NCBI GenBank assembly: GCA_009914755.4
Contig: CP086569.2
Span: 33,664,001 to 33,728,000 of the forward strand
DNA length: 64,000 bases
Source of the DNA: the human T2T-CHM13v2.0 reference genome, Homo sapiens
Direction: 5' to 3'
Shown: positions 24,401 to 53,531 of the stretch, one piece after another
Numbering within the stretch: position 1 is the stretch's first letter
How the letters are laid out: the number at the start of each line of letters is the position of its first letter
Notes under the pieces: model-generated
Told to the model about the DNA's origin: nothing
Seen by the model: the letters and a program-made list of their open reading frames with translations, nothing else
Databases searched by the model: none
Position numbers and translations under genes: made by a program

Positions 24401-24999
24401 ATGGGATTGGAATGAAATGTACTGGAAAGGACTCGAATTTCATGAAACGGAATGGAATGAATTGGAACGGAATGGACTCGAATGGAATGGAATGTCATGG
24501 AATGGCATCAAATGGAATGGCATCAAATGGAATGGAATCGAATGCAATGGAATGCTATGGAATGGAATGGAATGCATTGGAATGGAATGTCCTGTAATGG
24601 AATGGATTCGAGTGGAATGGAATCGAATATAATGGAGTCGAATGAAATGGAATTGAAAGGAATGGGATCGAATACAATGGAATATACTGGAATGTAATGT
24701 AATGAACTCGAATGTAATTGACTGGAATGGAATGTACATGAATGGAATGTAATCGAATGGAAAGTAATCCAATGGAATAGAATCTAATGCAATAAAATCG
24801 ACTCAGATAGAGTAGAATGTAATGGAATGGAGTGCAGTGCAATGGAATGGAATGGAATGGAATGCAATGGAATGGAATGGAATGGAATGGAATGGAATGG
24901 GATGGAATGGGATGGAATGGTATGGAATGGATAGTAATGGACTGGAGTGAAATGGACTGGAAAGGAATGGACTCAAATTGAAAGGGCTCGAAAGGAATG
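21428..24999 (+). repeat. HOR unit 7 (3572 bp; carries the 8-bp duplication).
   Basis: Landmark at 21428 and 25000. Confidence 0.85.
22580..22595 (+). repeat. Same 8-bp tandem duplication (unit 7).
   Basis: Identical string at identical unit offset (about +1152). Confidence 0.9.
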
Positions 25000-27900: not shown

Positions 27901-28568
27901 AATCAAATCAATGGAATCAAATCAAATGGAATGGAAAGGAATTGAATGGAGTAGATTGGATTGGATGGGATTGGAATGAAATGTACTGGAAAGGACTCGA
28001 ATTTCATGAAACGGAATGGAATGAATTGGAACGGAATGGACTCGAATGGAATGGAATGTCATGGAATGGCATCAAATGGAATGGCATCAAATGGAATGGA
28101 ATCGAATGCAATGGAATGCTATGGAATGGAATGGAATGCGTTGGAATGGAATGTCCTGTAATGGAATGGATTCGAGTGGAATGGAATCGAATATAATGGA
28201 GTCGAATGAAATGGAATTGAAAGGAATGGGATCGAATACAATGGAATATACTGGAATGTAATGTAATGAACTCGAATGTAATTGACTGGAATGGAATGTA
28301 CATGAATGGAATGTAATCGAATGGAAAGTAATCCAATGGAATAGAATCTAATGCAATAAAATCGACTCAGATAGAGTAGAATGTAATGGAATGGAGTGCA
28401 GTGCAATGGAATGGAATGGAATGGAATGCAATGGAATGGAATGGAATGGAATGGAATGGAATGGAATGGGATGGAATGGGATGGAATGGGATGGAATGGA
28501 TAGTAATGGACTGGAGTGAAATGGACTGGAAAGGAATGGACTCAAATTGATAGGGCTCGAAAGGAATG
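25000..28568 (+). repeat. HOR unit 8 (3569 bp).
   Basis: Landmark at 25000 and 28569. Confidence 0.85.
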
Positions 28569-31500
28569 GAGTCAAATGGAATGGTCTGGAATGGAATGAA
28601 CACGAATGTAATGCAATCCAATAGAATGGAATCGAATGGCATGGAATATAAAGAAATGGAATCGAAGAGAATGGAAACAAATGGAATGGAATTGAATGGA
28701 ATGGAATTGAATGGAATGGGAACGAATGGAGTGAAATTGTATGCAGTAGAAGGGAATAGAACGGAATGCAAGCGAAAGGAAAGGAATGGATTGGAATGGA
28801 ATGGAATTCATTGGAATGGAAGGGAATGTAGTGTAATGGACAGGCCTGGAATAAAGTGGAATGCTACGGTCTCGAATGGAATAAAAATGTATGGAATGGA
28901 ATGCAATGAAACGGAATCGAATGTCATAGAATGTAATGGAATGCAAAAAAATGGAATCCAAAATCATTGACTGGAAAGGCTGGGTGTCGAAAGGAATTGA
29001 CTCCAATGGTATGGAATCGAATGGAATGGAAGTGAATAGAATCGAACTAAATCGAATGGAATGGAATTGATAGGAACGGAATGGAAAGGAATGCAATGAA
29101 TTGGCATGGAATGGAATCGAATGGCATCGAATGCAATGGAATGGAATGCAATGGAATGGAATGTATTAGAATGTAATGAACTTTAATGGAATGTACTCGA
29201 ATGGATTCGACTGGAATGGAATGTTCTGGAAGTAAATGGACTCCAATGGAATGGATTCAAAAGGAATGTAATCGTACGGAATGGAATCTAATGGAATGGA
29301 ATTAAATGGAAATGAATCAAATTGAATAGCACGGAATTGAATTGAATGGAATGGAATGCAATGGAATCTAATGAAACGGAAAGGAAAGGAATGGAATGGA
29401 ATGGAATGGGCTGGAATGGAAAGGAATTGAAACGAATGGAATGGAATCGAACTGAAGAGACTGGAATGGAATGCACTGGAATGGAAGGGAGTGTAATGGA
29501 AGGTTCTCGAAAAAAATGGAATCGAATGGAATGGAATTGAATGGAACGGAATAGAGTCGAATGGAATTGAATGGAATGGAATGGACTAGAGTGAAATGGA
29601 ATCGAACCACAAGGAATGGACAGGAATAGAATGGTCTCGAATTGAATGGAATCGTATGGAATGGCATCAAACGGAATGGAATGGACAGCCACGGAATGGA
29701 ATGCACTCGAATGCAATGGAGTCGAAACGTCGAAACTAATGGACTGGAATAGAATGGACTCGACTGGTACGGACTCCAATGGAATGGAATCGAATGGAAG
29801 GGAATCGAACGGAATGGACTCGAAGGGAAAAGACTGCAATGGAAAGGTCTCGAATGGAATGGAAATTAATGGAATGGAATGGAATCGAATGAAATGGAGT
29901 CAAAAGGAATGGAATCGAATGGCAAGAAATCGAATGTAATGGAATCGCAAGGAATTGATGTGAACGGAACGGAATGGAATGGAATCCAAAGGAATGGAAT
30001 AGAATGGAATGGAATCGAATGGAAAGGACTCGAATGGAAATCACTCGAATAGAATGCAATTTAATAAAATAGGATCAAATGTAATGGAATGGAATGGAAA
30101 GGAATCGAAACAAAAGGAATGGAGACAGATGGAATGGAATGGAACAGAGAGCAATGGTATAGAATGGAATGGAATCATCTGGAATGGAATTGAATGGAAT
30201 GGAATAATATGAAATGGAATGGAATGGAATGGAATGGAATGTCCTTGAATTAAATGGACTGGAATGGAATGGACTCGAACAGAGTGGAATGGAAAGTGTT
30301 GAGATAGAATGCAATGGACTCCTTTGGAATGGTGTAGTATGCAATGCAATCGACTGGCAGGGAATCAAAAGGAATGTAATGGAATGGATTGGACTGGAAT
30401 GCAATGGACTCGAATAGATTGGAAACGGAATGCAAAGGAATGGAATGGAATAGTATGGAATGGAATGGAAAGGAATGGAGTGGAATAGACTAGAGTGGAA
30501 TGGAATGGACTGGAAAGCAATGGACTGGAATGGAACTTTCTTGAATGGACTGGAATCAAACGGAATGGAATGCAATGCAATCAAATGGCATGGAATAAAA
30601 TAGAATGAAAGAGAATCAAATGGAATTGAATCGAATGGAATCGAATGGATTGGAAAGGAATAGAATGGAATGGAATGGAATTGACTCAAATGGAATGGAC
30701 TAGAATGGAATGGATTCGAATGGAAGGCAAAGGAATGGAATCTATTGGAATGGACTGTAATGGAATGGAATGGAAGGGATTGGAATGGACTCGAATGGAA
30801 TGGACTGCAATAGAAAGGATTCGAATGGAATGAAAAAGAATTGAATGGAATAGAACAGAATGGAATCAAATCGAATGAAATGGAATGGAATAGAAAGGAA
30901 TGGAATGAAATGGAATGGAAAGGATTCGAATGGAATGCAATCGAATGGAATGGAATCGAACGGAATGGAATAAAATGGAAGAAAACTGGCAAGAAATGGA
31001 ATCGAAATGAATGGAGTGTTATGGAACGGACTCAAAAGGAATTGAATGTAATAGAATGGAGTGGAGTGGACTCGAATATAATGGACTGGAATGGAATGAA
31101 ATCACAAGGAATGGGAACGAATGGAATGGAATGGAAAGGAATGGAATCGAATGGAAAGGAATCGAATGGAAGGGAATGAAATTGAATCAACAGGAATGGA
31201 AGGGAATAGAATAGACGGTAATGGAATGGACTCGAATAGAATGGACACGAATGCTCAAATTGAATGGACTCGAATGGAATGGAAACGAAAGGAATGTCAT
31301 CGAATGGAATTGAATCGATTGGAATGAAATCGCATAGAATGGAGTGGAATCAAATGGAATTGAATCGAAAGGAAAGGAAGCGAATGGACTGAAATGAAAT
31401 GGAATGGAATTGAATGGAAAGTAATGCAATGGAATAGAATGGAACGAAATTTCACGGAATGGAATCAAACTGAATGGAATCAAATCAATGGAATCAAATC

Positions 31501-32145
31501 AAATGGAATGGAAAGGAATTGAATGGAGTAGATTGGATTGGATGGGATTGGAATGAAATGTACTGGAAAGGACTCGAATTTCATGAAACGGAATGGAATG
31601 AATTGGAACGGAATGGACTCGAATGGAATGGAATGTCATGGAATGGCATCAAATGGAATGGCATCAAATGGAATGGAATCGAATGCAATGGAATGTTATG
31701 GAATGGAATGGAATGCATTGGAATGGAATGTCCTGTAATGGAATGGATTCGAGTGGAATGGAATCGAATATAATGGAGTCGAATGAAATGGAATTGAAAG
31801 GAATGGGATCGAATACAATGGAATATACTGGAATGTAATGTAATGAACTCGAATGTAATTGACTGGAATGGAATGTACATGAATGGAATGTAATCGAATG
31901 GAAAGTAATCCAATGGAATAGAATCTAATGCAATAAAATCGACTCAGATAGAGTAGAATGTAATGGAATGGAGTGCAGTGCAATGGAATGGAATGGAATG
32001 GAATGCAATGGAATGGAATGGAATGGAATGGAATGGAATGGAATGGGATGGATTGGGATGGAATGGGATGGAATGGATAGTAATGGACTGGAGTGAAATG
32101 GACTGGAAAGGAATGGACTCAAATTGATAGGGCTCGAAAGGAATG
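28569..32145 (+). repeat. HOR unit 9 (3577 bp; carries the 8-bp duplication).
   Basis: Landmark at 28569 and 32146. Confidence 0.85.
29721..29736 (+). repeat. Same 8-bp tandem duplication (unit 9).
   Basis: Identical string at identical unit offset. Confidence 0.9.
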
Positions 32146-35100
32146 GAGTCAAATGGAATGGTCTGGAATGGAATGAACACGAATGTAATGCAATCCAATA
32201 GAATGGAATCGAATGGCATGGAATATAAAGAAATGGAATCGAAGAGAATGGAAACAAATGGAATGGAATTGAATGGAATGGAATTGAATGGAATGGGAAC
32301 GAATGGAGTGAAATTGTATGCAGTAGAAGGGAATAGAATGGAATGCAAGCGAAAGGAAAGGAATGGATTGGAATGGAATGGAATTCATTGGAATGGAAGG
32401 GAATGTAGTGTAATGGACAGGCCTGGAATAAAGTGGAATGCTACGGTCTCGAATGGAATAAAAATGTATGGAATGGAATGCAATGAAACGGAATCGAATG
32501 TCATAGAATGTAATGGAATGCAAAAAAATGGAATCCAAAATCATTGACTGGAAAGGCTGGGTGTCGAAAGGAATTGACTCCAATGGAATGGAATCGAATG
32601 GAATGGAAGTGAATAGAATCGAACTAAATCGAATGGAATGGAATTGATAGGAACGGAATGGAAAGGAATGCAATGATTTGGCATGGAATGGAATCGAATG
32701 GCATCGAATGGAATGGAATGGAATGCAATGGAATGGAATGTATTAGAATGTAATGAACTTTAATGGAATGTACTCGAATGGATTCGACTGGAATGGAATG
32801 TTCTGGAAGTGAATGGACTCCAATGGAATGGATTCAAAAGGAATGGAATCGTACGGAATGGAATCTAATGGAATGGAATTAAATGGAAATGAATCAAATT
32901 GAATAGCACGGAATTGAATTGAATGGAATGGAATGCAATGGAATCTAATGAAACGGAAAGGAAAGGAATGGAATGGAATGGAATGGGCTGGAATGGAAAG
33001 GAATCGAAACGAATGGAATGGAATCGAACTGAAGAGACTGGAATGGAATGCACTGGAATGGAAGGGAGTGTAATGGAAGGTTCTCGAAAAAAATGGAATC
33101 GAATGGAATGGAATTGAATGGAACGGAATAGAGTCGAATGGAATTGAATGGAATGGAATGGACTAGAGTGAAATGGAATCGAACCACAAGGAATGGACAG
33201 GAATAGAATGGTCTCGAATTGAATGGAATCGTATGGAATGGCATCAAACGGAATGGAATGGACAGCCACGGAATGGAATGCACTCGAATGCAATGGAGTC
33301 GAAACTAATGGACTGGAATAGAATGGACTCGACTGGTACGGACTCCAATGGAATGGAATCGAATGGAAGGGAATCGAACGGAATGGACTCGAAGGGAAAA
33401 GACTGCAATGGAAAGGTCTCGAATGGAATGGAAATTAATGGAATGGAATGGAATCGAATGAAATGGAGTCAAAAGGAATGGAATCGAATGGCAAGAAATC
33501 GAATGTAATGGAATCGCAAGGAATTGATGTGAACGGAACGGAATGGAATGGAATCCAAAGGAATGGAATAGAATGGAATGGAATCGAATGGAAAGGACTC
33601 GAATGGAAATCACTCGAATAGAATGCAATTTAATAAAATAGGATCAAATGGAATGGAATGGAATGGAAAGGAATCGAAACGAAAGGAATGGAGACAGATG
33701 GAATGGAATGGAACAGAGAGCAATGGTATAGAATGGAATGGAATCATCTGGAATGGAATTGAATGGAATGGAATAATATGAAATGGAATGGAATGGAATG
33801 GAATGGAATGCCCTTGAATTAAATGGACTGGAATGGAATGGACTCGAACAGAGTGGAATGGAAAGTGTTGAGATAGAATGCAATGGACTCCTTTGGAATG
33901 GTGTAGTATGCAATGCAATCGACTGGCAGGGAATCAAAAGGAATGTAATCGAATGGATTGGACTGGAATGCAATGGACTCGAATAGATTGGAAACGGAAT
34001 GCAAAGGAATGGAATGGAATAGTATGGAATGGAATGGAAAGGAATGGAGTGGAATAGACTAGAGTGGAATGGAATGGACTGGAAAGCAATGGACTGGAAT
34101 GGAACTTTCTTGAATGGACTGGAATCAAACGGAATGGAATGCAATGCAATCAAATGGCATGGAATAAAATAGAATGAAAGAGAATCAAATGGAATTGAAT
34201 CGAATGGAATCGAATGGATTGGAAAGGAATAGAATGGAATGGAATGGAATTGACTCAAATGGAATGGACTAGAATGGAATGGATTCGAATGGAAGGCAAA
34301 GGAATGGAATCTATTGGAATGGACTGTAATGGAATGGAATGGAAGGGATTGGAATGGACTCGAATGGAATGGACTGCAATAGAAAGGATTCGAATGGAAT
34401 GAAAAAGAATTGAATGGAATAGAACAGAATGGAATCAAATCGAATGAAATGGAATGGAATAGAAAGGAATGGAATGAAATGGAATGGAAAGGATTCGAAT
34501 GGAATGCAATCGAATGGAATGGAATCGAACGGAATGGAATAAAATGGAAGAAAACTGGCAAGAAATGGAATCGAAATGAATGGAGTGTTATGGAACGGAC
34601 TCAAAAGGAATTGAATGTAATAGAATGGAGTGGAGTGGACTCGAATATAATGGACTGGAATGGAATGAAATCACATGGAATGGGAACGAATGGAATGGAA
34701 TGGAAAGGAATGGAATCGAATGGAAAGGAATCGAATGGAAGGGAATGAAATTGAATCAACAGGAATGGAAGGGAATAGAATAGACGGTAATGGAATGGAC
34801 TCGAATAGAATGGACACGAATGCTGAAATTGAATGGACTCGAATGGAATGGAAACGAAAGGAATGTCATCGAATGGAATTGAATCGATTGGAATGAAATC
34901 GCATAGAATGGAGTGGAATCAAATGGAATTGAATCGAAAGGAAAGGAAGCGAATGGACTGAAATGAAATGGAATGGAATTGAATGGAAAGTAATGCAATG
35001 GAATAGAATGGAACGAAATTTCACGGAATGGAATCAAACTGAATGGAATCAAATCAATGGAATCAAATCAAATGGAATGGAAAGGAATTGAATGGAGTAG

Positions 35101-35714
35101 ATTGGATTGGATGGGATTGGAATGAAATGTACTGGAAAGGACTCGAATTTCATGAAACGGAATGGAATGAATTGGAACGGAATGGACTCGAATGGAATGG
35201 AATGTCATGGAATGGCATCAAATGGAATGGCATCAAATGGAATGGAATCGAATGCAATGGAATGCTATGGAATGGAATGGAATGCATTGGAATGGAATGT
35301 CCTCTAATGGAATGGATTCGAGTGGAATGGAATCGAATATAATGGAGTCGAATGAAATGGAATTGAAAGGAGTGGGATCGAATACAATGGAATATACTGG
35401 AATGTAATGTAATGAACTCGAATGTAATTGACTGGAATGGAATGTACATGAATGGAATGTAATCGAATGGAAAGTAATCCAATGGAATAGAATCTAATGC
35501 AATAAAACCGACTCAGATAGAGTAGAATGTAATGGAATGGAGTGCAGTGCAATGGAATGGAATGGAATGGAATGCAATGGAATGGAATGGAATGGAATGG
35601 AATGGAATTGAATGGAATGGAATGGGATGGAATGGGATGGAATGGATAGTAATGGACTGGAGTGAAATGGACTGGAAAGGAATGGACTCAAATTGAAAGG
35701 GCTCGAAAGGAATG
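32146..35714 (+). repeat. HOR unit 10 (3569 bp).
   Basis: Landmark at 32146 and 35715. Confidence 0.85.
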
Positions 35715-38700
35715 GAGTCAAATGGAATGGTCTGGAATGGAATGAACACGAATGTAATGCAATCCAATAGAATGGAATCGAATGGCATGGAATATAAAGA
35801 AATGGAATCGAAGAGAATGGAAACAAATGGAATGGAATTGAATGGAATGGAATTGAATGGAATGGGAACGAATGGAGTGAAATTGTATGCAGTAGAAGGG
35901 AATAGAATGGAATGCAAGCGAAAGGAAAGGAATGGATTGGAATGGAATGGAATTCATTGGAATGGAAGGGAATGTAGTGTAATGGACAGGCCTGGAATAA
36001 AGTGGAATGCTACGGTCTCGAATGGAATAAAAATGTATGGAATGGAATGCAATGAAACGGAATCGAATGTCATAGAATGTAATGGAATGCAAAAAAATGG
36101 AATCCAAAATCATTGACTGGAAAGGCTGGGTGTCGAAAGGAATTGACTCCAATGGAATGGAATCGAATGGAATGGAAGTGAATAGAATCGAACTAAATCG
36201 AATGGAATGGAATTGATAGGAACGGAATGGAAAGGAATGCAATGATTTGGCATGGAATGGAATCGAATGGCATCGAATGGAATGGAATGGAATGCAATGG
36301 AATGGAATGTATTAGAATGTAATGAACTTTAATGGAATGTACTCGAATGGATTCGACTGGAATGGAATGTTCTGGAAGTGAATGGACTCCAATGGAATGG
36401 ATTCAAAAGGAATGGAATCGTACGGAATGGAATCTAATGGAATGGAATTAAATGGAAATGAATCAAATTGAATAGCACGGAATTGAATTGAATGGAATGG
36501 AATGCAATGGAATCTAATGAAACGGAAAGGAAAGGAATGGAATGGAATGGAATGGGCTGGAATGGAAAGGAATCGAAACGAATGGAATGGAATCGAACTG
36601 AAGAGACTGGAATGGAATGCACTGGAATGGAAGGGAGTGTAATGGAAGGTTCTCGAAAAAAATGGAATCGAATGGAATGGAATTGAATGGAACGGAATAG
36701 AGTCGAATGGAATTGAATGGAATGGAATGGACTAGAGTGAAATGGAATCGAACCACAAGGAATGGACAGGAATAGAATGGTCTCGAATTGAATGGAATCG
36801 TATGGAATGGCATCAAACGGAATGGAATGGACAGCCACGGAATGGAATGCACTCGAATGCAATGGAGTCGAAACTAATGGACTGGAATAGAATGGACTCG
36901 ACTGGTACGGACTCCAATGGAATGGAATCGAATGGAAGGGAATCGAACGGAATGGACTCGAAGGGAAAAGACTGCAATGGAAAGGTCTCGAATGGAATGG
37001 AAATTAATGGAATGGAATGGAATCGAATGAAATGGAGTCAAAAGGAATGGAATCGAATGGCAAGAAATCGAATGTAATGGAATCGCAAGGAATTGATGTG
37101 AACGGAACGGAATGGAATGGAATCCAAAGGAATGGAATAGAATGGAATGGAATCGAATGGAAAGGACTCGAATGGAAATCACTCGAATAGAATGCAATTT
37201 AATAAAATAGGATCAAATGGAATGGAATGGAATGGAAAGGAATCGAAATGAAAGGAATGGAGACAGATGGAATGGAATGGAACAGAGAGCAATGGTATAG
37301 AATGGAATGGAATCATCTGGAATGGAATTGAATGGAATGGAATAATATGAAATGGAATGGAATGGAATGGAATGGAATGCCCTTGAATTAAATGGACTGG
37401 AATGGAATGGACTCGAACAGAGTGGAATGGAAAGTGTTGAGATAGAATGCAATGGACTCCTTTGGAATGGTGTAGTATGCAATGCAATCGACTGGCAGGG
37501 AATCAAAAGGAATGTAATGGAATGGATTGGACTGGAATGCAATGGACTCGAATAGATTGGAAACGGAATGCAAAGGAATGGAATGGAATAGTATGGAATG
37601 GAATGGAAAGGAATGGAGTGGAATAGACTAGAGTGGAATGGAATGGACTGGAAAGCAATGGACTGGAATGGAACTTTCTTGAATGGACTGGAATCAAACG
37701 GAATGGAATGCAATGCAATCAAATGGCATGGAATAAAATAGAATGAAAGAGAATCAAATGGAATTGAATCGAATGGAATCGAATGGATTGGAAAGGAATA
37801 GAATGGAATGGAATTGAATTGACTCAAATGGAATGGACTAGAATGGAATGGATTCGAATGGAAGGCAAAGGAATGGAATCTATTGGAATGGACTGTAATG
37901 GAATGGAATGGAAGGGATTGGAATGGACTCGAATGGAATGGACTGCAATAGAAAGGATTCGAATGGAATGAAAAAGAATTGAATGGAATAGAACAGAATG
38001 GAATCAAATCGAATGAAATGGAATGGAATAGAAAGGAATGGAATGAAATGGAATGGAAAGGATTCGAATGGAATGCAATCGAATGGAATGGAATCGAACG
38101 GAATGGAATAAAATGGAAGAAAACTGGCAAGAAATGGAATCGAAATGAATGGAGTGTTATGGAACGGACTCAAAAGGAATTGAATGTAATAGAATGGAGT
38201 GGAGTGGACTCGAATATAATGGACTGGAATGGAATGAAATCACAAGGAATGGGAACGAATGGAATGGAATGGAAAGGAATGGAATCGAATGGAAAGGAAT
38301 CGAATGGAAGGGAATGAAATTGAATCAACAGGAATGGAAGGGAATAGAATAGACGGTAATGGAATGGACTCGAATAGAATGGACACGAATGCTCAAATTG
38401 AATGGACTCGAATGGAATGGAAACGAAAGGAATGTCATCGAATGGAATTGAATGGATTGGAATGAAATCGCATAGAATGGAGTGGAATCAAATGGAATTG
38501 AATCGAAAGGAAAGGAAGCGAATGGACTGAAATGAAATGGAATGGAATTGAATGGAAAGTAATGCAATGGAATAGAATGGAACGAAATTTCACGGAATGG
38601 AATCAAACTGAATGGAATCAAATCAATGGAATCAAATCAAATGGAATGGAAAGGAATTGAATGGAGTAGATTGGATTGGATGGGATTGGAATGAAATGTA

Positions 38701-39283
38701 CTGGAAAGGACTCGAATTTCATGAAACGGAATGGAATGAATTGGAACGGAATGGACTCGAATGGAATGGAATGTCATGGAATGGCATCAAATGGAATGGC
38801 ATCAAATGGAATGGAATCGAATGCAATGGAATGCTATGGAATGGAATGGAATGCATTGGAATGGAATGTCCTCTATTGGAATGGATTCGAGTGGAATGGA
38901 ATCGAATATAATGGAGTCGAATGAAATGGAATTGAAAGGAGTGGGATCGAATACAATGGAATATACTGGAATGTAATGTAATGAACTCGAATGTAATTGA
39001 CTGGAATGGAATGTACATGAATGGAATGTAATCGAATGGAAAGTAATCCAATGGAATAGAATCTAATGCAATAAAACCGACTCAGATAGAGTAGAATGTA
39101 ATGGAATGGAGTGCAGTGCAATGGAATGGAATGGAATGGAATGCAATGGAATGGAATGGAATGGAATGGAATGGAATGGAATGGAATGGAATGGGATGGA
39201 ATGGGATGGAATGGATAGTAATGGACTGGAGTGAAATGGACTGGAAAGGAATGGACTCAAATTGAAAGGGCTCGAAAGGAATG
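35715..39283 (+). repeat. HOR unit 11 (3569 bp).
   Basis: Landmark at 35715 and 39284. Confidence 0.85.
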
Positions 39284-42200
39284 GAGTCAAATGGAATGGT
39301 CTGGAATGGAATGAACACGAATGTAATGCAATCCAATAGAATGGAATCGAATGGCATGGAATATAAAGAAATGGAATCGAAGAGAATGGAAACAAATGGA
39401 ATGGAATTGAATGGAATGGAATTGAATGGAATGGGAACGAATGGAGTGAAATTGTATGCAGTAGAAGGGAATAGAATGGAATGCAAGCGAAAGGAAAGGA
39501 ATGGATTGGAATGGAATGGAATTCATTGGAATGGAAGGGAATGTAGTGTAATGGACAGGCCTGGAATAAAGTGGAATGCTACGGTCTCGAATGGAATAAA
39601 AATGTATGGAATGGAATGCAATGAAACGGAATCGAATGTCATAGAATGTAATGGAATGCAAAAAAATGGAATCCAAAATCATTGACTGGAAAGGCTGGGT
39701 GTCGAAAGGAATTGACTCCAATGGTATGGAATCGAATGGAATGGAAGTGAATAGAATCGAACTAAATCGAATGGAATGGAATTGATAGGAACGGAATGGA
39801 AAGGAATGCAATGAATTGGCATGGAATGGAATCGAATGGCATCGAATGCAATGGAATGGAATGCAATGGAATGGAATGTATTAGAATGTAATGAACTTTA
39901 ATGGAATGTACTCGAATGGATTCGACTGGAATGGAATGTTCTGGAAGTAAATGGACTCCAATGGAATGGATTCAAAAGGAATGTAATCGTACGGAATGGA
40001 ATCTAATGGAATGGAATTAAATGGAAATGAATCAAATTGAATAGCACGGAATTGAATTGAATGGAATGGAATGCAATGGAATCTAATGAAACGGAAAGGA
40101 AAGGAATGGAATGGAATGGAATGGGCTGGAATGGAAAGGAATTGAAACGAATGGAATGGAATCGAACTGAAGAGACTGGAATGGAATGCACTGGAATGGA
40201 AGGGAGTGTAATGGAAGGTTCTCGAAAAAAATGGAATCGAATGGAATGGAATTGAATGGAACGGAATAGAGTCGAATGGAATTGAATGGAATGGAATGGA
40301 CTAGAGTGAAATGGAATCGAACCACAAGGAATGGACAGGAATAGAATGGTCTCGAATTGAATGGAATCGTATGGAATGGCATCAAACGGAATGGAATGGA
40401 CAGCCACGGAATGGAATGCACTCGAATGCAATGGAGTCGAAACGTCGAAACTAATGGACTGGAATAGAATGGACTCGACTGGTACGGACTCCAATGGAAT
40501 GGAATCGAATGGAAGGGAATCGAACGGAATGGACTCGAAGGGAAAAGACTGCAATGGAAAGGTCTCGAATGGAATGGAAATTAATGGAATGGAATGGAAT
40601 CGAATGAAATGGAGTCAAAAGGAATGGAATCGAATGGCAAGAAATCGAATGTAATGGAATCGCAAGGAATTGATGTGAACGGAACGGAATGGAATGGAAT
40701 CCAAAGGAATGGAATAGAATGGAATGGAATCGAATGGAAAGGACTCGAATGGAAATCACTCGAATAGAATGCAATTTAATAAAATAGGATCAAATGTAAT
40801 GGAATGGAATGGAAAGGAATCGAAACAAAAGGAATGGAGACAGATGGAATGGAATGGAACAGAGAGCAATGGTATAGAATGGAATGGAATCATCTGGAAT
40901 GGAATTGAATGGAATGGAATAATATGAAATGGAATGGAATGGAATGGAATGGAATGTCCTTGAATTAAATGGACTGGAATGGAATGGACTCGAACAGAGT
41001 GGAATGGAAAGTGTTGAGATAGAATGCAATGGACTCCTTTGGAATGGTGTAGTATGCAATGCAATCGACTGGCAGGGAATCAAAAGGAATGTAATGGAAT
41101 GGATTGGACTGGAATGCAATGGACTCGAATAGATTGGAAACGGAATGCAAAGGAATGGAATGGAATAGTATGGAATGGAATGGAAAGGAATGGAGTGGAA
41201 TAGACTAGAGTGGAATGGAATGGACTGGAAAGCAATGGACTGGAATGGAACTTTCTTGAATGGACTGGAATCAAACGGAATGGAATGCAATGCAATCAAA
41301 TGGCATGGAATAAAATAGAATGAAAGAGAATCAAATGGAATTGAATCGAATGGAATCGAATGGATTGGAAAGGAATAGAATGGAATGGAATGGAATTGAC
41401 TCAAATGGAATGGACTAGAATGGAATGGATTCGAATGGAAGGCAAAGGAATGGAATCTATTGGAATGGACTGTAATGGAATGGAATGGAAGGGATTGGAA
41501 TGGACTCGAATGGAATGGACTGCAATAGAAAGGATTCGAATGGAATGAAAAAGAATTGAATGGAATAGAACAGAATGGAATCAAATCGAATGAAATGGAA
41601 TGGAATAGAAAGGAATGGAATGAAATGGAATGGAAAGGATTCGAATGGAATGCAATCGAATGGAATGGAATCGAACGGAATGGAATAAAATGGAAGAAAA
41701 CTGGCAAGAAATGGAATCGAAATGAATGGAGTGTTATGGAACGGACTCAAAAGGAATTGAATGTAATAGAATGGAGTGGAGTGGACTCGAATATAATGGA
41801 CTGGAATGGAATGAAATCACAAGGAATGGGAACGAATGGAATGGAATGGAAAGGAATGGAATCGAATGGAAAGGAATCGAATGGAAGGGAATGAAATTGA
41901 ATCAACAGGAATGGAAGGGAATAGAATAGACGGTAATGGAATGGACTCGAATAGAATGGACACGAATGCTCAAATTGAATGGACTCGAATGGAATGGAAA
42001 CGAAAGGAATGTCATCGAATGGAATTGAATGGATTGGAATGAAATCGCATAGAATGGAGTGGAATCAAATGGAATTGAATCGAAAGGAAAGGAAGCGAAT
42101 GGACTGAAATGAAATGGAATGGAATTGAATGGAAAGTAATGCAATGGAATAGAATGGAACGAAATTTCACGGAATGGAATCAAACTGAATGGAATCAAAT

Positions 42201-42860
42201 CAATGGAATCAAATCAAATGGAATGGAAAGGAATTGAATGGAGTAGATTGGATTGGATGGGATTGGAATGAAATGTACTGGAAAGGACTCGAATTTCATG
42301 AAACGGAATGGAATGAATTGGAACGGAATGGACTCGAATGGAATGGAATGTCATGGAATGGCATCAAATGGAATGGCATCAAATGGAATGGAATCGAATG
42401 CAATGGAATGTTATGGAATGGAATGGAATGCATTGGAATGGAATGTCCTGTAATGGAATGGATTCGAGTGGAATGGAATCGAATATAATGGAGTCGAATG
42501 AAATGGAATTGAAAGGAATGGGATCGAATACAATGGAATATACTGGAATGTAATGTAATGAACTCGAATGTAATTGACTGGAATGGAATGTACATGAATG
42601 GAATGTAATCGAATGGAAAGTAATCCAATGGAATAGAATCTAATGCAATAAAATCGACTCAGATAGAGTAGAATGTAATGGAATGGAGTGCAGTGCAATG
42701 GAATGGAATGGAATGGAATGCAATGGAATGGAATGGAATGGAATGGAATGGAATGGAATGGGATGGATTGGGATGGAATGGGATGGAATGGATAGTAATG
42801 GACTGGAGTGAAATGGACTGGAAAGGAATGGACTCAAATTGATAGGGCTCGAAAGGAATG
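39284..42860 (+). repeat. HOR unit 12 (3577 bp; carries the 8-bp duplication).
   Basis: Landmark at 39284 and 42861. Confidence 0.85.
40436..40451 (+). repeat. Same 8-bp tandem duplication (unit 12).
   Basis: Identical string at identical unit offset. Confidence 0.9.
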
Positions 42861-45800
42861 GAGTCAAATGGAATGGTCTGGAATGGAATGAACACGAATG
42901 TAATGCAATCCAATAGAATGGAATCGAATGGCATGGAATATAAAGAAATGGAATCGAAGAGAATGGAAACAAATGGAATGGAATTGAATGGAATGGAATT
43001 GAATGGAATGGGAACGAATGGAGTGAAATTGTATGCAGTAGAAGGGAATAGAATGGAATGCAAGCGAAAGGAAAGGAATGGATTGGAATGGAATGGAATT
43101 CATTGGAATGGAAGGGAATGTAGTGTAATGGACAGGCCTGGAATAAAGTGGAATGCTACGGTCTCGAATGGAATAAAAATGTATGGAATGGAATGCAATG
43201 AAACGGAATCGAATGTCATAGAATGTAATGGAATGCAAAAAAATGGAATCCAAAATCATTGACTGGAAAGGCTGGGTGTCGAAAGGAATTGACTCCAATG
43301 GAATGGAATCGAATGGAATGGAAGTGAATAGAATCGAACTAAATCGAATGGAATGGAATTGATAGGAACGGAATGGAAAGGAATGCAATGATTTGGCATG
43401 GAATGGAATCGAATGGCATCGAATGGAATGGAATGGAATGCAATGGAATGGAATGTATTAGAATGTAATGAACTTTAATGGAATGTACTCGAATGGATTC
43501 GACTGGAATGGAATGTTCTGGAAGTGAATGGACTCCAATGGAATGGATTCAAAAGGAATGGAATCGTACGGAATGGAATCTAATGGAATGGAATTAAATG
43601 GAAATGAATCAAATTGAATAGCACGGAATTGAATTGAATGGAATGGAATGCAATGGAATCTAATGAAACGGAAAGGAAAGGAATGGAATGGAATGGAATG
43701 GGCTGGAATGGAAAGGAATCGAAACGAATGGAATGGAATCGAACTGAAGAGACTGGAATGGAATGCACTGGAATGGAAGGGAGTGTAATGGAAGGTTCTC
43801 GAAAAAAATGGAATCGAATGGAATGGAATTGAATGGAACGGAATAGAGTCGAATGGAATTGAATGGAATGGAATGGACTAGAGTGAAATGGAATCGAACC
43901 ACAAGGAATGGACAGGAATAGAATGGTCTCGAATTGAATGGAATCGTATGGAATGGCATCAAACGGAATGGAATGGACAGCCACGGAATGGAATGCACTC
44001 GAATGCAATGGAGTCGAAACTAATGGACTGGAATAGAATGGACTCGACTGGTACGGACTCCAATGGAATGGAATCGAATGGAAGGGAATCGAACGGAATG
44101 GACTCGAAGGGAAAAGACTGCAATGGAAAGGTCTCGAATGGAATGGAAATTAATGGAATGGAATGGAATCGAATGAAATGGAGTCAAAAGGAATGGAATC
44201 GAATGGCAAGAAATCGAATGTAATGGAATCGCAAGGAATTGATGTGAACGGAACGGAATGGAATGGAATCCAAAGGAATGGAATAGAATGGAATGGAATC
44301 GAATGGAAAGGACTCGAATGGAAATCACTCGAATAGAATGCAATTTAATAAAATAGGATCAAATGGAATGGAATGGAATGGAAAGGAATCGAAACGAAAG
44401 GAATGGAGACAGATGGAATGGAATGGAACAGAGAGCAATGGTATAGAATGGAATGGAATCATCTGGAATGGAATTGAATGGAATGGAATAATATGAAATG
44501 GAATGGAATGGAATGGAATGGAATGCCCTTGAATTAAATGGACTGGAATGGAATGGACTCGAACAGAGTGGAATGGAAAGTGTTGAGATAGAATGCAATG
44601 GACTCCTTTGGAATGGTGTAGTATGCAATGCAATCGACTGGCAGGGAATCAAAAGGAATGTAATGGAATGGATTGGACTGGAATGCAATGGACTCGAATA
44701 GATTGGAAACGGAATGCAAAGGAATGGAATGGAATAGTATGGAATGGAATGGAAAGGAATGGAGTGGAATAGACTAGAGTGGAATGGAATGGACTGGAAA
44801 GCAATGGACTGGAATGGAACTTTCTTGAATGGACTGGAATCAAACGGAATGGAATGCAATGCAATCAAATGGCATGGAATAAAATAGAATGAAAGAGAAT
44901 CAAATGGAATTGAATCGAATGGAATCGAATGGATTGGAAAGGAATAGAATGGAATGGAATGGAATTGACTCAAATGGAATGGACTAGAATGGAATGGATT
45001 CGAATGGAAGGCAAAGGAATGGAATCTATTGGAATGGACTGTAATGGAATGGAATGGAAGGGATTGGAATGGACTCGAATGGAATGGACTGCAATAGAAA
45101 GGATTCGAATGGAATGAAAAAGAATTGAATGGAATAGAACAGAATGGAATCAAATCGAATGAAATGGAATGGAATAGAAAGGAATGGAATGAAATGGAAT
45201 GGAAAGGATTCGAATGGAATGCAATCGAATGGAATGGAATCGAACGGAATGGAATAAAATGGAAGAAAACTGGCAAGAAATGGAATCGAAATGAATGGAG
45301 TGTTATGGAACGGACTCAAAAGGAATTGAATGTAATAGAATGGAGTGGAGTGGACTCGAATATAATGGACTGGAATGGAATGAAATCACATGGAATGGGA
45401 ACGAATGGAATGGAATGGAAAGGAATGGAATCGAATGGAAAGGAATCGAATGGAAGGGAATGAAATTGAATCAACAGGAATGGAAGGGAATAGAATAGAC
45501 GGTAATGGAATGGACTCGAATAGAATGGACACGAATGCTGAAATTGAATGGACTCGAATGGAATGGAAACGAAAGGAATGTCATCGAATGGAATTGAATC
45601 GATTGGAATGAAATCGCATAGAATGGAGTGGAATCAAATGGAATTGAATCGAAAGGAAAGGAAGCGAATGGACTGAAATGAAATGGAATGGAATTGAATG
45701 GAAAGTAATGCAATGGAATAGAATGGAACGAAATTTCACGGAATGGAATCAAACTGAATGGAATCAAATCAATGGAATCAAATCAAATGGAATGGAAAGG

Positions 45801-46429
45801 AATTGAATGGAGTAGATTGGATTGGATGGGATTGGAATGAAATGTACTGGAAAGGACTCGAATTTCATGAAACGGAATGGAATGAATTGGAACGGAATGG
45901 ACTCGAATGGAATGGAATGTCATGGAATGGCATCAAATGGAATGGCATCAAATGGAATGGAATCGAATGCAATGGAATGCTATGGAATGGAATGGAATGC
46001 ATTGGAATGGAATGTCCTCTAATGGAATGGATTCGAGTGGAATGGAATCGAATATAATGGAGTCGAATGAAATGGAATTGAAAGGAGTGGGATCGAATAC
46101 AATGGAATATACTGGAATGTAATGTAATGAACTCGAATGTAATTGACTGGAATGGAATGTACATGAATGGAATGTAATCGAATGGAAAGTAATCCAATGG
46201 AATAGAATCTAATGCAATAAAACCGACTCAGATAGAGTAGAATGTAATGGAATGGAGTGCAGTGCAATGGAATGGAATGGAATGGAATGCAATGGAATGG
46301 AATGGAATGGAATGGAATGGAATTGAATGGAATGGAATGGGATGGAATGGGATGGAATGGATAGTAATGGACTGGAGTGAAATGGACTGGAAAGGAATGG
46401 ACTCAAATTGAAAGGGCTCGAAAGGAATG
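42861..46429 (+). repeat. HOR unit 13 (3569 bp).
   Basis: Landmark at 42861 and 46430. Confidence 0.85.
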
Positions 46430-49400
46430 GAGTCAAATGGAATGGTCTGGAATGGAATGAACACGAATGTAATGCAATCCAATAGAATGGAATCGAATGG
46501 CATGGAATATAAAGAAATGGAATCGAAGAGAATGGAAACAAATGGAATGGAATTGAATGGAATGGAATTGAATGGAATGGGAACGAATGGAGTGAAATTG
46601 TATGCAGTAGAAGGGAATAGAATGGAATGCAAGCGAAAGGAAAGGAATGGATTGGAATGGAATGGAATTCATTGGAATGGAAGGGAATGTAGTGTAATGG
46701 ACAGGCCTGGAATAAAGTGGAATGCTACGGTCTCGAATGGAATAAAAATGTATGGAATGGAATGCAATGAAACGGAATCGAATGTCATAGAATGTAATGG
46801 AATGCAAAAAAATGGAATCCAAAATCATTGACTGGAAAGGCTGGGTGTCGAAAGGAATTGACTCCAATGGAATGGAATCGAATGGAATGGAAGTGAATAG
46901 AATCGAACTAAATCGAATGGAATGGAATTGATAGGAACGGAATGGAAAGGAATGCAATGATTTGGCATGGAATGGAATCGAATGGCATCGAATGGAATGG
47001 AATGGAATGCAATGGAATGGAATGTATTAGAATGTAATGAACTTTAATGGAATGTACTCGAATGGATTCGACTGGAATGGAATGTTCTGGAAGTGAATGG
47101 ACTCCAATGGAATGGATTCAAAAGGAATGGAATCGTACGGAATGGAATCTAATGGAATGGAATTAAATGGAAATGAATCAAATTGAATAGCACGGAATTG
47201 AATTGAATGGAATGGAATGCAATGGAATCTAATGAAACGGAAAGGAAAGGAATGGAATGGAATGGAATGGGCTGGAATGGAAAGGAATCGAAACGAATGG
47301 AATGGAATCGAACTGAAGAGACTGGAATGGAATGCACTGGAATGGAAGGGAGTGTAATGGAAGGTTCTCGAAAAAAATGGAATGGAATGGAATGGAATTG
47401 AATGGAACGGAATAGAGTCGAATGGAATTGAATGGAATGGAATGGACTAGAGTGAAATGGAATCGAACCACAAGGAATGGACAGGAATAGAATGGTCTCG
47501 AATTGAATGGAATCGTATGGAATGGCATCAAACGGAATGGAATGGACAGCCACGGAATGGAATGCACTCGAATGCAATGGAGTCGAAACTAATGGACTGG
47601 AATAGAATGGACTCGACTGGTACGGACTCCAATGGAATGGAATCGAATGGAAGGGAATCGAACGGAATGGACTCGAAGGGAAAAGACTGCAATGGAAAGG
47701 TCTCGAATGGAATGGAAATTAATGGAATGGAATGGAATCGAATGAAATGGAGTCAAAAGGAATGGAATCGAATGGCAAGAAATCGAATGTAATGGAATCG
47801 CAAGGAATTGATGTGAACGGAACGGAATGGAATGGAATCCAAAGGAATGGAATAGAATGGAATGGAATCGAATGGAAAGGACTCGAATGGAAATCACTCG
47901 AATAGAATGCAATTTAATAAAATAGGATCAAATGGAATGGAATGGAATGGAAAGGAATCGAAATGAAAGGAATGGAGACAGATGGAATGGAATGGAACAG
48001 AGAGCAATGGTATAGAATGGAATGGAATCATCTGGAATGGAATTGAATGGAATGGAATAATATGAAATGGAATGGAATGGAATGGAATGGAATGCCCTTG
48101 AATTAAATGGACTGGAATGGAATGGACTCGAACAGAGTGGAATGGAAAGTGTTGAGATAGAATGCAATGGACTCCTTTGGAATGGTGTAGTATGCAATGC
48201 AATCGACTGGCAGGGAATCAAAAGGAATGTAATGGAATGGATTGGACTGGAATGCAATGGACTCGAATAGATTGGAAACGGAATGCAAAGGAATGGAATG
48301 GAATAGTATGGAATGGAATGGAAAGGAATGGAGTGGAATAGACTAGAGTGGAATGGAATGGACTGGAAAGCAATGGACTGGAATGGAACTTTCTTGAATG
48401 GACTGGAATCAAACGGAATGGAATGCAATGCAATCAAATGGCATGGAATAAAATAGAATGAAAGAGAATCAAATGGAATTGAATCGAATGGAATCGAATG
48501 GATTGGAAAGGAATAGAATGGAATGGAATTGAATTGACTCAAATGGAATGGACTAGAATGGAATGGATTCGAATGGAAGGCAAAGGAATGGAATCTATTG
48601 GAATGGACTGTAATGGAATGGAATGGAAGGGATTGGAATGGACTCGAATGGAATGGACTGCAATAGAAAGGATTCGAATGGAATGAAAAAGAATTGAATG
48701 GAATAGAACAGAATGGAATCAAATCGAATGAAATGGAATGGAATAGAAAGGAATGGAATGAAATGGAATGGAAAGGATTCGAATGGAATGCAATCGAATG
48801 GAATGGAATCGAACGGAATGGAATAAAATGGAAGAAAACTGGCAAGAAATGGAATCGAAATGAATGGAGTGTTATGGAACGGACTCAAAAGGAATTGAAT
48901 GTAATAGAATGGAGTGGAGTGGACTCGAATATAATGGACTGGAATGGAATGAAATCACAAGGAATGGGAACGAATGGAATGGAATGGAAAGGAATGGAAT
49001 CGAATGGAAAGGAATCGAATGGAAGGGAATGAAATTGAATCAACAGGAATGGAAGGGAATAGAATAGACGGTAATGGAATGGACTCGAATAGAATGGACA
49101 CGAATGCTCAAATTGAATGGACTCGAATGGAATGGAAACGAAAGGAATGTCATCGAATGGAATTGAATGGATTGGAATGAAATCGCATAGAATGGAGTGG
49201 AATCAAATGGAATTGAATCGAAAGGAAAGGAAGCGAATGGACTGAAATGAAATGGAATGGAATTGAATGGAAAGTAATGCAATGGAATAGAATGGAACGA
49301 AATTTCACGGAATGGAATCAAACTGAATGGAATCAAATCAATGGAATCAAATCAATGGAATCAATTCAAATGGAATGGAAAGGAATTGAATGGAGTAGAT

Positions 49401-50012
49401 TGGATTGGATGGGATTGGAATGAAATGTACTGGAAAGGACTCGAATTTCATGAAACGGAATGGAATGAATTGGAACGGAATGGACTCGAATGGAATGGAA
49501 TGTCATGGAATGGCATCAAATGGAATGGCATCAAATGGAATGGAATCGAATGCAATGGAATGCTATGGAATGGAATGGAATGCATTGGAATGGAATGTCC
49601 TGTAATGGAATGGATTCGAGTGGAATGGAATCGAATATAATGGAGTCGAATGAAATGGAATTGAAAGGAATGGGATCGAATACAATGGAATATACTGGAA
49701 TGTAATGTAATGAACTCGAATGTAATTGACTGGAATGGAATGTACATGAATGGAATGTAATCGAATGGAAAGTAATCCAATGGAATAGAATCTAATGCAA
49801 TAAAATCGACTCAGATAGAGTAGAATGTAATGGAATGGAGTGCAGTGCAATGGAATGGAATGGAATGGAATGCAATGGAATGGAATGGAATGGAATGGAA
49901 TGGAATGGAATGGGATGGATTGGGATGGAATGGGATGGAATGGATAGTAATGGACTGGAGTGAAATGGACTGGAAAGGAATGGACTCAAATTGATAGGGC
50001 TCGAAAGGAATG
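46430..50012 (+). repeat. HOR unit 14 (3583 bp; carries a 14-bp module duplication).
   Basis: Landmark at 46430 and 50013. Confidence 0.85.
49331..49373 (+). repeat. Extra copy of the 14-nt module 'aatcaaatcaatgg', giving three modules instead of two (unit 14).
   Basis: Unit 14: 'aatcaaatcaatgg aatcaaatcaatgg aatcaattcaaatgg'. Other units: 'aatcaaatcaatgg aatcaaatcaaatgg'. This accounts for the +14 bp (3583-bp unit). Confidence 0.8.
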
Positions 50013-53000: not shown

Positions 53001-53531
53001 GGACTCGAATGGAATGGAATGTCATGGAATGGCATCAAATGGAATGGCATCAAATGGAATGGAATCGAATGCAATGGAATGCTATGGAATGGAATGGAAT
53101 GCATTGGAATGGAATGTCCTCTAATGGAATGGATTCGAGTGGAATGGAATCGAATATAATGGAGTCGAATGAAATGGAATTGAAAGGAGTGGGATCGAAT
53201 ACAATGGAATATACTGGAATGTAATGTAATGAACTCGAATGTAATTGACTGGAATGGAATGTACATGAATGGAATGTAATCGAATGGAAAGTAATCCAAT
53301 GGAATAGAATCTAATGCAATAAAACCGACTCAGATAGAGTAGAATGTAATGGAATGGAGTGCAGTGCAATGGAATGGAATGGAATGGAATGCAATGGAAT
53401 GGAATGGAATGGAATGCAATGGAATTGAATGGAATGGAATGGGATGGAATGGGATGGAATGGATAGTAATGGACTGGAGTGAAATGGACTGGAAAGGAAT
53501 GGACTCAAATTGAAAGGGCTCGAAAGGAATG
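50013..53531 (+). repeat. HOR unit 15 (3519 bp; carries a 50-bp internal deletion).
   Basis: Landmark at 50013 and 53532. Confidence 0.85.
50657..50666 (+). other. Junction of a 50-bp deletion in unit 15, flanked by the direct repeat 'ggaatggaat'.
   Basis: Unit 15 reads 'gattcgactggaatggaatcgtacgg'. Other units have 50 extra bases, 'gttctggaagtgaatggactccaatggaatggattcaaaaggaatggaat', between 'ggaat' and 'cgtacgg'. Unit length 3519 = 3569 - 50. Confidence 0.85.

What the first reader, a model, noticed from the sequence alone, without database searches (positions are those of the whole stretch)
29288..48686. Tandem ~10.7-kb (3-unit) super-repeat: units 9-11 share private variants with units 12-14
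Many rare variants recur exactly 3 units downstream (offset 10715 bp), giving a shared run of about 8.6 kb.
- Units 9 and 12 share the 8-bp duplication and the variants RFNSF (29288/40003), GKELKRM (29346/40061), SKQKEW (30009/40724), HSFCFDSF (30041/40756), FLLFRF (30075/40790), HNIPLHS (31581/42296), QWNVMEW (31623/42338), IPIHPIPF (31925/42640) and HPNPSHS (31944/42659).
- Units 10 and 13 share SHGMG (34410/45125), EITWNG (34580/45295), the MEWERMEW 73-aa ORF (34675/45390), NFSIRV (34756/45471), ECPLMEW (35043/45758) and SSNG/KGVG (35192/45907).
- Units 11 and 14 share HSFHFDSF (37179/47894), QFNSIPFYS (37213/47928) and NGIELTQ (37783/48498).
The shared run ends near 38.6k/49.3k, where unit 11 follows unit 2's haplotype (ECPLLEW) and unit 14 does not. 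This looks like a recent 3-unit tandem duplication by unequal exchange, later broken up by conversion.
Basis: seen in the sequence. Interest (0 to 1): 0.6.

Follow-up and report, generated by a model that had tools for sequence, protein, structure and literature searches.

The report
Recent three-unit duplication in DYZ1 satellite
The window is a stretch of the human Y-chromosome DYZ1 satellite in which a block of three neighbouring 3.57-kb repeat units has recently been copied head-to-tail; this is real, but it is the ordinary way such satellite arrays grow.

Summary
The window is 18 tandem ~3.57-kb units built from GGAAT pentamers. They match human DYZ1 (HSat3A6, Yq12) on unit length, HaeIII site, GC content, CpG density and published primers.

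At offset 10,715 bp (3577+3569+3569), positions 28763-38640 match 39478-49355 over 9,878 bp with 3 mismatches (99.97%). Other unit pairs differ at about 4.5 sites per kb, so about 44 differences are expected (Poisson P ~1e-15). No other offset gives an exact run over 1,682 bp. With one 14-bp insertion allowed, the match reaches about 10.1-10.3 kb of the 10.7-kb period. The remainder is a 0.3-0.4-kb patch at the end of unit 11 that carries a unit-2-like haplotype.

The likeliest cause is en-bloc tandem duplication of three dissimilar units by unequal sister-chromatid exchange, followed by short-tract conversion.

The unit 10/13 markers are not private to that pair.

Iterative tandem duplication by unequal exchange, and interlocus conversion, are already published for Yq12. 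This is an ordinary instance, so interest is low.

The parts
1..64000 (+). DYZ1 (HSat3A6-type) satellite array: 17 complete units and one partial unit of ~3.57 kb. Unit starts are 1, 3565, 7139, 10716, 14285, 17849, 21428, 25000, 28569, 32146, 35715, 39284, 42861, 46430, 50013, 53532, 57101, 60665. The + strand is the GGAAT-rich strand.
   Evidence: TRF finds a 15-bp AATGGAATGGAATCG array over the whole window. Anchor k-mers occur once per unit. There is one HaeIII and one EcoRI site per unit, a modal unit of 3569 bp, GC 38.9% and one CpG per 35.8 bp. Published DYZ1 primers match once per unit.
28763..38640 (+). Copy 1 of the duplicated block: unit 9 from column 195, unit 10, and unit 11 up to column 2940.
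   Evidence: 9,878 bp with 3 mismatches to 39478-49355 at offset 10,715.
39478..49355 (+). Copy 2 of the duplicated block: unit 12 from column 195, unit 13, and unit 14 up to column 2940.
   Evidence: Same comparison. u9-u12 differ by 2 substitutions and u10-u13 by 1.
28762..28762 (+). Left edge of the uninterrupted match: C in u9 (also in u5) against T at 39477 in u12 and in all other units. To the left, the next difference is at 28551. If this one site is allowed, the match starts at 28552.
31316..31316 (+). First of three substitutions inside the block: C here, G at 42031. Context is AAT[C/G]GA. C is also carried by u5, u10, u13, u15 and u18.
33950..33950 (+). Second substitution inside the block: C here, G at 44665. 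C is also carried by u1.
36669..36669 (+). Third substitution inside the block: C here, G at 47384. G is also carried by u6, u8, u15 and u18.
49352..49365 (+). 14-bp insertion (TCAATGGAATCAAT) private to unit 14. It is an imperfect local duplication. It ends the ungapped match. Beyond it u11 and u14 stay identical for another ~236 bp, to 38872/49601.
38873..39266 (+). Discordant patch in the tail of unit 11. It differs at 7 sites from the u14 tail (49602-49995) and at 6 of the same sites from the u8 tail (28158-28551). It carries the u2/u10/u13-type haplotype. This includes T at 38876, which is shared only with u2.
   Evidence: (ECPLLEW only in u2 and u11).
29721..29728 (+). 8-bp insertion GTCGAAAC in u9, repeated at 40436-40443 in u12. 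It makes these units 3577 bp long. It is also present in u3 (8291-8298) and u7 (22580-22587).

Best explanation
The window is part of a DYZ1 (HSat3A6) satellite array of the human Y long-arm heterochromatin.

Within it, a block of three consecutive and mutually dissimilar 3.57-kb units was duplicated en bloc, head-to-tail. The block is 3577+3569+3569 = 10,715 bp. The result is units 9-10-11 followed by units 12-13-14.

The most likely mechanism is homologous exchange between sister chromatids misaligned by three units. This part of the Y has no homologue to pair with. Such an exchange leaves no novel junction sequence.

After the duplication, a few short non-reciprocal exchanges with other units altered the copies:
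- one 0.3-0.4-kb patch at the end of unit 11, or at the matching ends of units 8 and 14;
- three or four single sites;
- a 14-bp slippage insertion in unit 14.

Shown: the sequence identity, the two-copy structure and the mosaic pattern. Inferred: the gain in copy number, the sister-chromatid mechanism, and the order and direction of the later events.

Age: at the published Yq12 rate of 3.86e-7 per bp per generation, 3 differences in 9,878 bp give about 390 generations (Poisson range 80-1,150). The age would be roughly ten to twenty times greater at a euchromatic rate. It is only an upper bound if the differences are conversions.
For: **Identity as DYZ1.**
- Modal 3,569-bp HaeIII unit, 38.9% GC and one CpG per 35.8 bp. 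Hallast et al. give the same values for DYZ1.
- All 8 DYZ1 primers of PMC3925983 match once per unit, 4 exactly and 4 with one error.
- The 154-bp primer pair I recalled for DYZ1 matches exactly in every unit.

**Duplication.**
- 9,878 bp at 99.97% identity at offset 10,715, against a background of 3.8-5.3 differences per kb.
- P ~1e-15.
- The three units are different types in the same order.
- Units 9-14 have no private substitutions. Variants that would be private appear as pairs at +3 units.
- The u9/u12 and u11/u14 private variants are absent from 20 and 56 DYZ1 units found in unrelated public contigs. They are therefore rare, local variants.

**Mechanism precedent.**
[quoted passage not shown] It also reports sister-chromatid exchanges in ~15% of Strand-seq libraries.

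**Later conversion.**
- The u11 tail is the odd one out against both the u8 and u14 tails.
- All isolated differences lie at sites that are already polymorphic with the same alleles. Possible donor tracts are bounded at under ~0.1-1.6 kb.
- Pedigree data attribute 17-29% of Yq12 de novo SNVs to interlocus conversion.
Against: - A gain of three units cannot be shown without an ancestral or related haplotype.
- The near-identical stretch covers 92-96% of the period, not all of it, so at least one extra event is needed.
- The arrangement 'u2-like tail followed by a unit with the 8-bp insertion' occurs at both u2/u3 and u11/u12. The u11 tail may therefore be old, with the u8 or u14 tail being the converted one.
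- The three internal differences share one sequence context and one direction (C in copy 1, G in copy 2). This could also reflect base-calling or polishing at CpG sites.
Confidence: 0.8

Rival explanations
1. Long-tract gene conversion without change in copy number. About 10 kb of units 9-11 was copied over three pre-existing units (or the reverse), homogenising them without adding units.
For: Interlocus gene conversion is active in Yq12. One haplotype cannot separate conversion from duplication. The match stops short of the full 10,715 bp.
Against: The tract would have to be about 10 kb long and displaced by exactly three units. The other exchanges inferred in this window are bounded at about 0.1-1.6 kb. 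Unequal exchange is the documented mode of Yq12 change.
Confidence: 0.1
2. Assembly artefact: a false tandem duplication, or mis-assignment of reads between near-identical units, created the second copy.
For: Satellite arrays at 99.5% unit identity are hard to assemble. The three differences between the copies are all C/G in one CpG context, which is compatible with consensus errors.
Against: The copies have different flanks and different tails. Copy 2 carries a private 14-bp insertion. The differing alleles are real variants seen in other units. Nothing in the sequence points to a join.
Confidence: 0.06
3. An older, regular three-unit (10.7-kb) higher-order periodicity of this DYZ1 block, of which units 9-14 are simply the best-preserved part.
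For: Ungapped self-identity peaks at 10,715, 21,430 and 32,145 bp. u15-u18 differ by only 6 substitutions.
Against: The offset peaks come from unit lengths that happen to sum to the same value. Other +3 pairs differ by 8-23 substitutions, the same as random pairs. Offset 3 has no other low-difference stretch. Units 6-8 and 15-17 are not copies of units 9-11.
Confidence: 0.03
4. Chance similarity among highly similar units.
For: All units are about 99.5% identical.
Against: About 44 differences are expected and 3 are observed, P ~1e-15. The next-best stretch at any offset has 23 events.
Confidence: 0.01

Closest known systems
DYZ1 / HSat3A6 satellite of human Yq12
   Same: Pentamer-derived ~3.57-kb unit with one HaeIII site. 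Modal length 3,569 bp, 38-39% GC and one CpG per ~35 bp. Published DYZ1 primers match every unit.
   Different: Nothing found. The chromosomal position cannot be verified with these tools.
Iterative tandem duplications in Yq12 described for T2T-Y (Rhie et al., bioRxiv 10.1101/2022.12.01.518724)
   Same: Head-to-tail duplication of several satellite units at higher identity than the surrounding array, attributed to unequal exchange.
   Different: The scale differs. The published examples reach up to 5 Mb and span whole DYZ1/DYZ2 blocks. This one is 10.7 kb, three units inside one DYZ1 block.
Interlocus gene conversion in Yq12 seen in pedigrees (Porubsky et al. 2025, PMC12240836; bioRxiv 10.64898/2026.06.03.729890)
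   Same: The differences between the two young copies sit at sites whose alleles already exist in other units. One 0.3-0.4-kb patch carries another unit's haplotype.
   Different: Here conversion is inferred from a mosaic pattern in one haplotype. It was not observed between father and son.
Recent local duplications in other Y satellites, such as the ~80-kb DYZ19 duplication shared by haplogroup QR (Hallast et al., bioRxiv 10.1101/2022.12.01.518658)
   Same: A discrete, datable multi-unit duplication inside a tandem array.
   Different: A different satellite and size. Phylogenetic sharing was not tested here.

Membership tests
DYZ1 (HSat3A6) satellite | Tandem unit of ~3.56-3.57 kb delimited by a single HaeIII (GGCC) site, with 3,569 bp the commonest fragment | tested here: met
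   18 GGCC sites, one per unit. Spacings are 3519-3583 bp and the mode is 3569. The criterion comes from Hallast et al. and PMC3925983.
DYZ1 (HSat3A6) satellite | Built from diverged GGAAT/ATTCC pentamers | tested here: met
   TRF consensus is AATGGAATGGAATCG over 7-63998. The top 5-mers are rotations of GGAAT.
DYZ1 (HSat3A6) satellite | About 38% GC and about one CpG per 35 bp | tested here: met
   38.9% GC and one CpG per 35.8 bp, against 38% and one per 35 bp.
DYZ1 (HSat3A6) satellite | Matches to DYZ1-specific PCR primers | tested here: met
   Eight primers of PMC3925983 Table 5 were tested. Four match exactly and four match with one error, each in 17-18 units. The recalled 154-bp pair matches exactly in 18 of 18 units. 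I could not find that pair in the searchable literature.
DYZ1 (HSat3A6) satellite | Located in Yq12, alternating with DYZ2 blocks | not testable with these tools
   No human genome collection is available. The window contains no DYZ2 and no flanking sequence.
Tandem duplication by unequal exchange | Two adjacent head-to-tail copies offset by a whole number of units | tested here: met
   The offset is 10,715 = 3577+3569+3569, and the copies abut.
Tandem duplication by unequal exchange | The copies are much more alike than other unit pairs over the whole duplicated length | tested here: met
   99.97% identity over 9.9 kb against about 99.55% background. This covers 92-96% of the period, with one discordant patch.
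Tandem duplication by unequal exchange | No foreign or novel sequence at the junction (homologous exchange) | tested here: met
   Every candidate junction (38641-39477) aligns to ordinary unit sequence. The 14-bp insertion lies at the far end of copy 2, not at the junction.
Tandem duplication by unequal exchange | Related haplotypes lacking the extra units (a copy-number gain) | not testable with these tools
   This needs other Y assemblies of the same locus.
Established multi-unit higher-order repeat (super-repeat) | The multi-unit period recurs over three or more successive copies | tested here: not met
   Only two copies exist. Units 6-8 and 15-17 are no closer to units 9-11 than random units are.

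The most novel reading that the evidence does not exclude
The most novel reading not excluded is that the two copies are a very young pair that have diverged only by templated exchange, not by point mutation. All three internal differences are C/G at AAT[C/G]GA. These are the only three variable columns in that context among the 18 units, and both alleles of each pre-exist in other units. If so, the pair would give a clean estimate of the conversion-to-mutation ratio and of tract lengths in Yq12. A second possibility is that the block is the seed of a new 10.7-kb higher-order period amplified outside the window.
Probability: 0.1. Interest if true: 0.3.

Novelty: already known. Interest (0 to 1): 0.12.

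Why it matters
It matters little on its own. It is a clear, small-scale example of how the DYZ1 array turns over. Several units are duplicated in one step by unequal exchange, then short conversions patch the copies. Both processes are already described for Yq12 from complete Y assemblies and from pedigrees.

Its practical value is as a local marker. A 21-kb pair at 99.97% identity is a place where assemblies and read mapping can go wrong. If the pair is polymorphic among men, it could serve as a lineage marker within Yq12.

Tried and rejected
- **The repeat finder on 27000-51000.** It was swamped by the 5/10/15-bp periodicity and returned only 300-nt pentamer families, so it was of no use. 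My own offset scans replaced it.
- **Multi-unit peaks at 21,430 and 32,145 bp.** I considered them as signs of a larger period. I rejected this because they arise from unit lengths summing to the same value. Pairs at +6 and +9 units are not closer than background.
- **Templating by the neighbouring pentamer (bases at +/-5 or +/-10).** This was tested as the source of substitutions: 31% observed against 28% expected, so there is no enrichment.
- **Literature confirmation of the recalled 154-bp DYZ1 primer pair.** It was not found in the searchable library. Published primers from PMC3925983 were used instead.
- **Private variants of u9/u12 and u11/u14 in other people's DYZ1.** I looked for them in human-contaminated public contigs. 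None was found in 20 and 56 units. This shows the variants are rare, but the contigs are too short to test the three-unit structure.
- **The 'ORFs' and peptide strings** (for example the 73-aa MEWERMEW ORF). These are translations of GGAAT repeats. I used them only as variant markers and did not pursue them as genes.
- **Deciding which tail (u8, u11 or u14) was converted.** Parsimony does not resolve it.
Full report
**What the window is.**

Tandem Repeats Finder reports one array over 7-63998 with the consensus AATGGAATGGAATCG. Composition is uniform at 38-40% GC with strong G over C skew.

Anchor 24-mers that occur exactly 18 times divide the window into 17 complete units and one partial unit. 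Unit lengths range from 3519 to 3583 bp and the mode is 3569. Each unit has one HaeIII site and one EcoRI site. GC is 38.9% and there is one CpG per 35.8 bp.

Hallast et al. (bioRxiv 10.1101/2022.12.01.518658) describe DYZ1 with the same values: a most abundant HaeIII fragment of 3,569 bp, 38% GC and one CpG per 35 bp.

All eight DYZ1 primers in Table 5 of PMC3925983 match once per unit, four exactly and four with one error. A 154-bp DYZ1 primer pair that I recalled from memory also matches exactly in all 18 units. I could not confirm that pair in the searchable literature.

Unrelated public contigs carry units up to 99.8% identical to the window consensus. These are human contamination of bacterial assemblies and metagenomes. 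The window is therefore human DYZ1 (HSat3A6) of the Yq12 heterochromatin. The chromosomal location itself rests on published knowledge, not on a test made here.

**Checking the observation.**

A scan of every offset from 3.4 to 60 kb for exact self-matches of at least 1.5 kb found four top runs, all at offset 10,715: 28763-31315, 31317-33949, 33951-36668 and 36670-38640. The longest run at any other offset is 1,682 bp.

Joined, the four runs give 9,878 bp with three mismatches against 39478-49355, or 99.97% identity.

In a MAFFT alignment of the 18 units, u9-u12 differ by 2 substitutions, u10-u13 by 1 and u11-u14 by 8. Typical pairs differ by about 15.

Counting substitutions and indel events along concatenated units gave these figures:
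- Background at unit offsets 1-9: 3.8-5.3 events per kb.
- Fewest events in any other ~9.9-kb stretch: 23.
- Events in the block at offset 3: 3-4.

The Poisson probability of three or fewer events when 44 are expected is 8e-16.

Of 13 substitutions carried by exactly two units, five are u9+u12 and one is u11+u14. Units 8-14 have no private substitutions at all.

Other pairs three units apart differ by 6-23 substitutions, so there is no general three-unit periodicity.

Every listed peptide marker exists in the stated units and recurs at +10,715 bp. Only MEWERMEW is at the stated coordinate, and the rest are displaced by 24-582 bp. Several markers report the same base change in different frames, so the 19 strings correspond to about 11 variant columns.

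The variants truly private to u9+u12 are at 29234, 29269, 29428, 30112 and 31696. One variant is private to u11+u14, at 37249.

The following are not private to the stated pairs:
- The u10/u13 markers belong to a haplotype also carried by u5, u15, u18 and partly u2.
- The 8-bp insertion GTCGAAAC is also in u3 and u7.
- IPIHPIPF and HPNPSHS (column 3509) are also in u14.
- QFNSIPFYS and NGIELTQ (column 2119) are also in u17.

**Anatomy of the edges.**

A gapped comparison at offset 10,715 lists every difference.

- Left of the block there are seven substitutions at 28140-28551 (u8 tail against u11 tail), then one at 28762.
- Inside the block there are substitutions at 31316, 33950 and 36669.
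- Next comes a 14-bp insertion private to u14 (49352-49365, an imperfect local duplication).
- After about 236 further identical bases there are seven substitutions at 38873-39266 (u11 tail against u14 tail).

The discordant columns on the two sides are largely the same ones. The tail of unit 11 is therefore the odd one out against both u8 and u14.

The tails relate to other units as follows:
- The u11 tail carries the haplotype of u2, u10 and u13, including a T at 38876 found only in u2 and u11.
- The u14 tail is one substitution away from the u9/u12 tail.
- The u8 tail is identical to the u4 tail.

Allowing the insertion and the single site at 28762, the near-identity covers 10.1-10.3 kb of the 10,715-bp period. 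A patch of 0.3-0.4 kb remains unexplained by a simple duplication.

**Mechanism.**

The three duplicated units are dissimilar: u9 differs from u10 and from u11 by 21 substitutions each. They recur in the same order with the same length variants, as expected for copying en bloc.

Unequal exchange between sister chromatids misaligned by three units produces exactly this result, two abutting copies with no novel junction. [quoted passage not shown] It also reports sister-chromatid exchanges in about 15% of Strand-seq libraries.

Any placement of the junction needs at least one further event in the tail region. A short conversion tract is the simplest candidate. Which tail was changed is not resolved, because 'u2-like tail followed by a unit with the 8-bp insertion' occurs at both u2/u3 and u11/u12.

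The three internal differences, and the one at 28762, all lie at sites where both alleles already occur in other units. Possible donor tracts are bounded at roughly 0.1-1.6 kb. Random new mutations would land on such pre-existing alleles less than 1% of the time each; this figure is my own estimate from 74 minor alleles in 3,569 x 3 possible changes. Micro-conversion or hot spots are therefore more likely than ordinary point mutation. Pedigree studies attribute 17-29% of Yq12 de novo SNVs to interlocus conversion.

**Age.**

At the published Yq12 rate of 3.86e-7 per bp per generation, three differences in 9,878 bp give about 390 generations, with a Poisson range of 80-1,150. At 2e-8 the figure is about 7,600 generations. 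If the differences are conversions, these figures are upper bounds.

**Rival explanations.**

- *Long-tract conversion without a copy gain.* It cannot be excluded from one haplotype, but it needs a ~10-kb tract displaced by exactly three units.
- *Assembly artefact.* This is unlikely given the different flanks, the different tails and a private insertion, but it needs read-level confirmation.
- *An established three-unit higher-order repeat.* This was tested and not met within the window.
- *Chance.* This is excluded.

**Rarity of the variants elsewhere.**

Degenerate patterns spanning the u9/u12 variants (columns 666 and 701) and the CpG hit differently in u9/u12 and u11/u14 (columns 1543 and 1544) were scanned in public bacterial genome and metagenome contigs. 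All 20 and all 56 DYZ1 units found carry the consensus alleles. The variants are therefore rare, which fits a local origin. The contigs are too short to test the three-unit structure in other people.

**Verdict.**

It is an ordinary, small instance of a process already documented for this satellite.

Noticed in passing
31316/42031, 33950/44665, 36669/47384: The three substitutions separating the two copies are all C in copy 1 and G in copy 2, in the context AAT[C/G]GA. These are the only three variable columns of the 18-unit alignment in that context. They could be micro-conversions, hot spots or CpG-related consensus errors. This is not resolved.
   Followed up: partly
30112/40827 (u9/u12) and 37249/47964 (u11/u14): One CpG was hit twice independently: CG to CA in u9/u12 and CG to TG in u11/u14. 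This is the pattern of deamination on opposite strands. Both changes predate the duplication. Neither was seen in 56 DYZ1 units from unrelated public contigs.
   Followed up: partly
window 1-3564 (unit 1), and after 62761 (unit 18): Unit 1 is the most divergent unit. It has 12 private substitutions and a 10-bp insertion at 1665-1674. It also has a 15-bp deletion after 2107 that is shared only with unit 18 (after 62761), 17 units away.
   Followed up: no
after 50663 (unit 15): A 50-bp deletion private to unit 15 makes it 3519 bp long. Other length variants are steps of 5 or 10 bp, an 8-bp insertion (u3, u7, u9, u12) and the 14-bp insertion in u14.
   Followed up: no
whole window (18-unit alignment): The substitution spectrum among units is rich in transversions. 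There are 28 transitions and 46 transversions, and 15 of the 74 changes are G<->C. Changes are not enriched for bases found 5 or 10 bp away (31% against 28% expected).
   Followed up: partly
units 2, 5, 10, 13, 15, 18, and the tail of unit 11: A second unit type recurs irregularly through the array. It is marked by T at column 2549, G at 2698, C at 2758, C at 3191, G at 3259, C at 3395 and A at 3503. Other patchy sharing is also present: the u4 tail equals the u8 tail, u7 and u17 share a 5-bp deletion, and u6 and u8 share two variants. This is a mosaic typical of repeated exchange.
   Followed up: partly
L001 (BMRF01000076.1), L007 (CAYVXY010000078.1) and other loci L001-L060: Contigs deposited as bacterial genomes or metagenomes are DYZ1 units up to 99.8% identical to the window consensus. 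Examples are Actinomadura cremea JCM 3308, several Streptomyces JCM strains and a Polyangiaceae MAG. This is human Y contamination, as the T2T-Y paper warned.
   Followed up: partly
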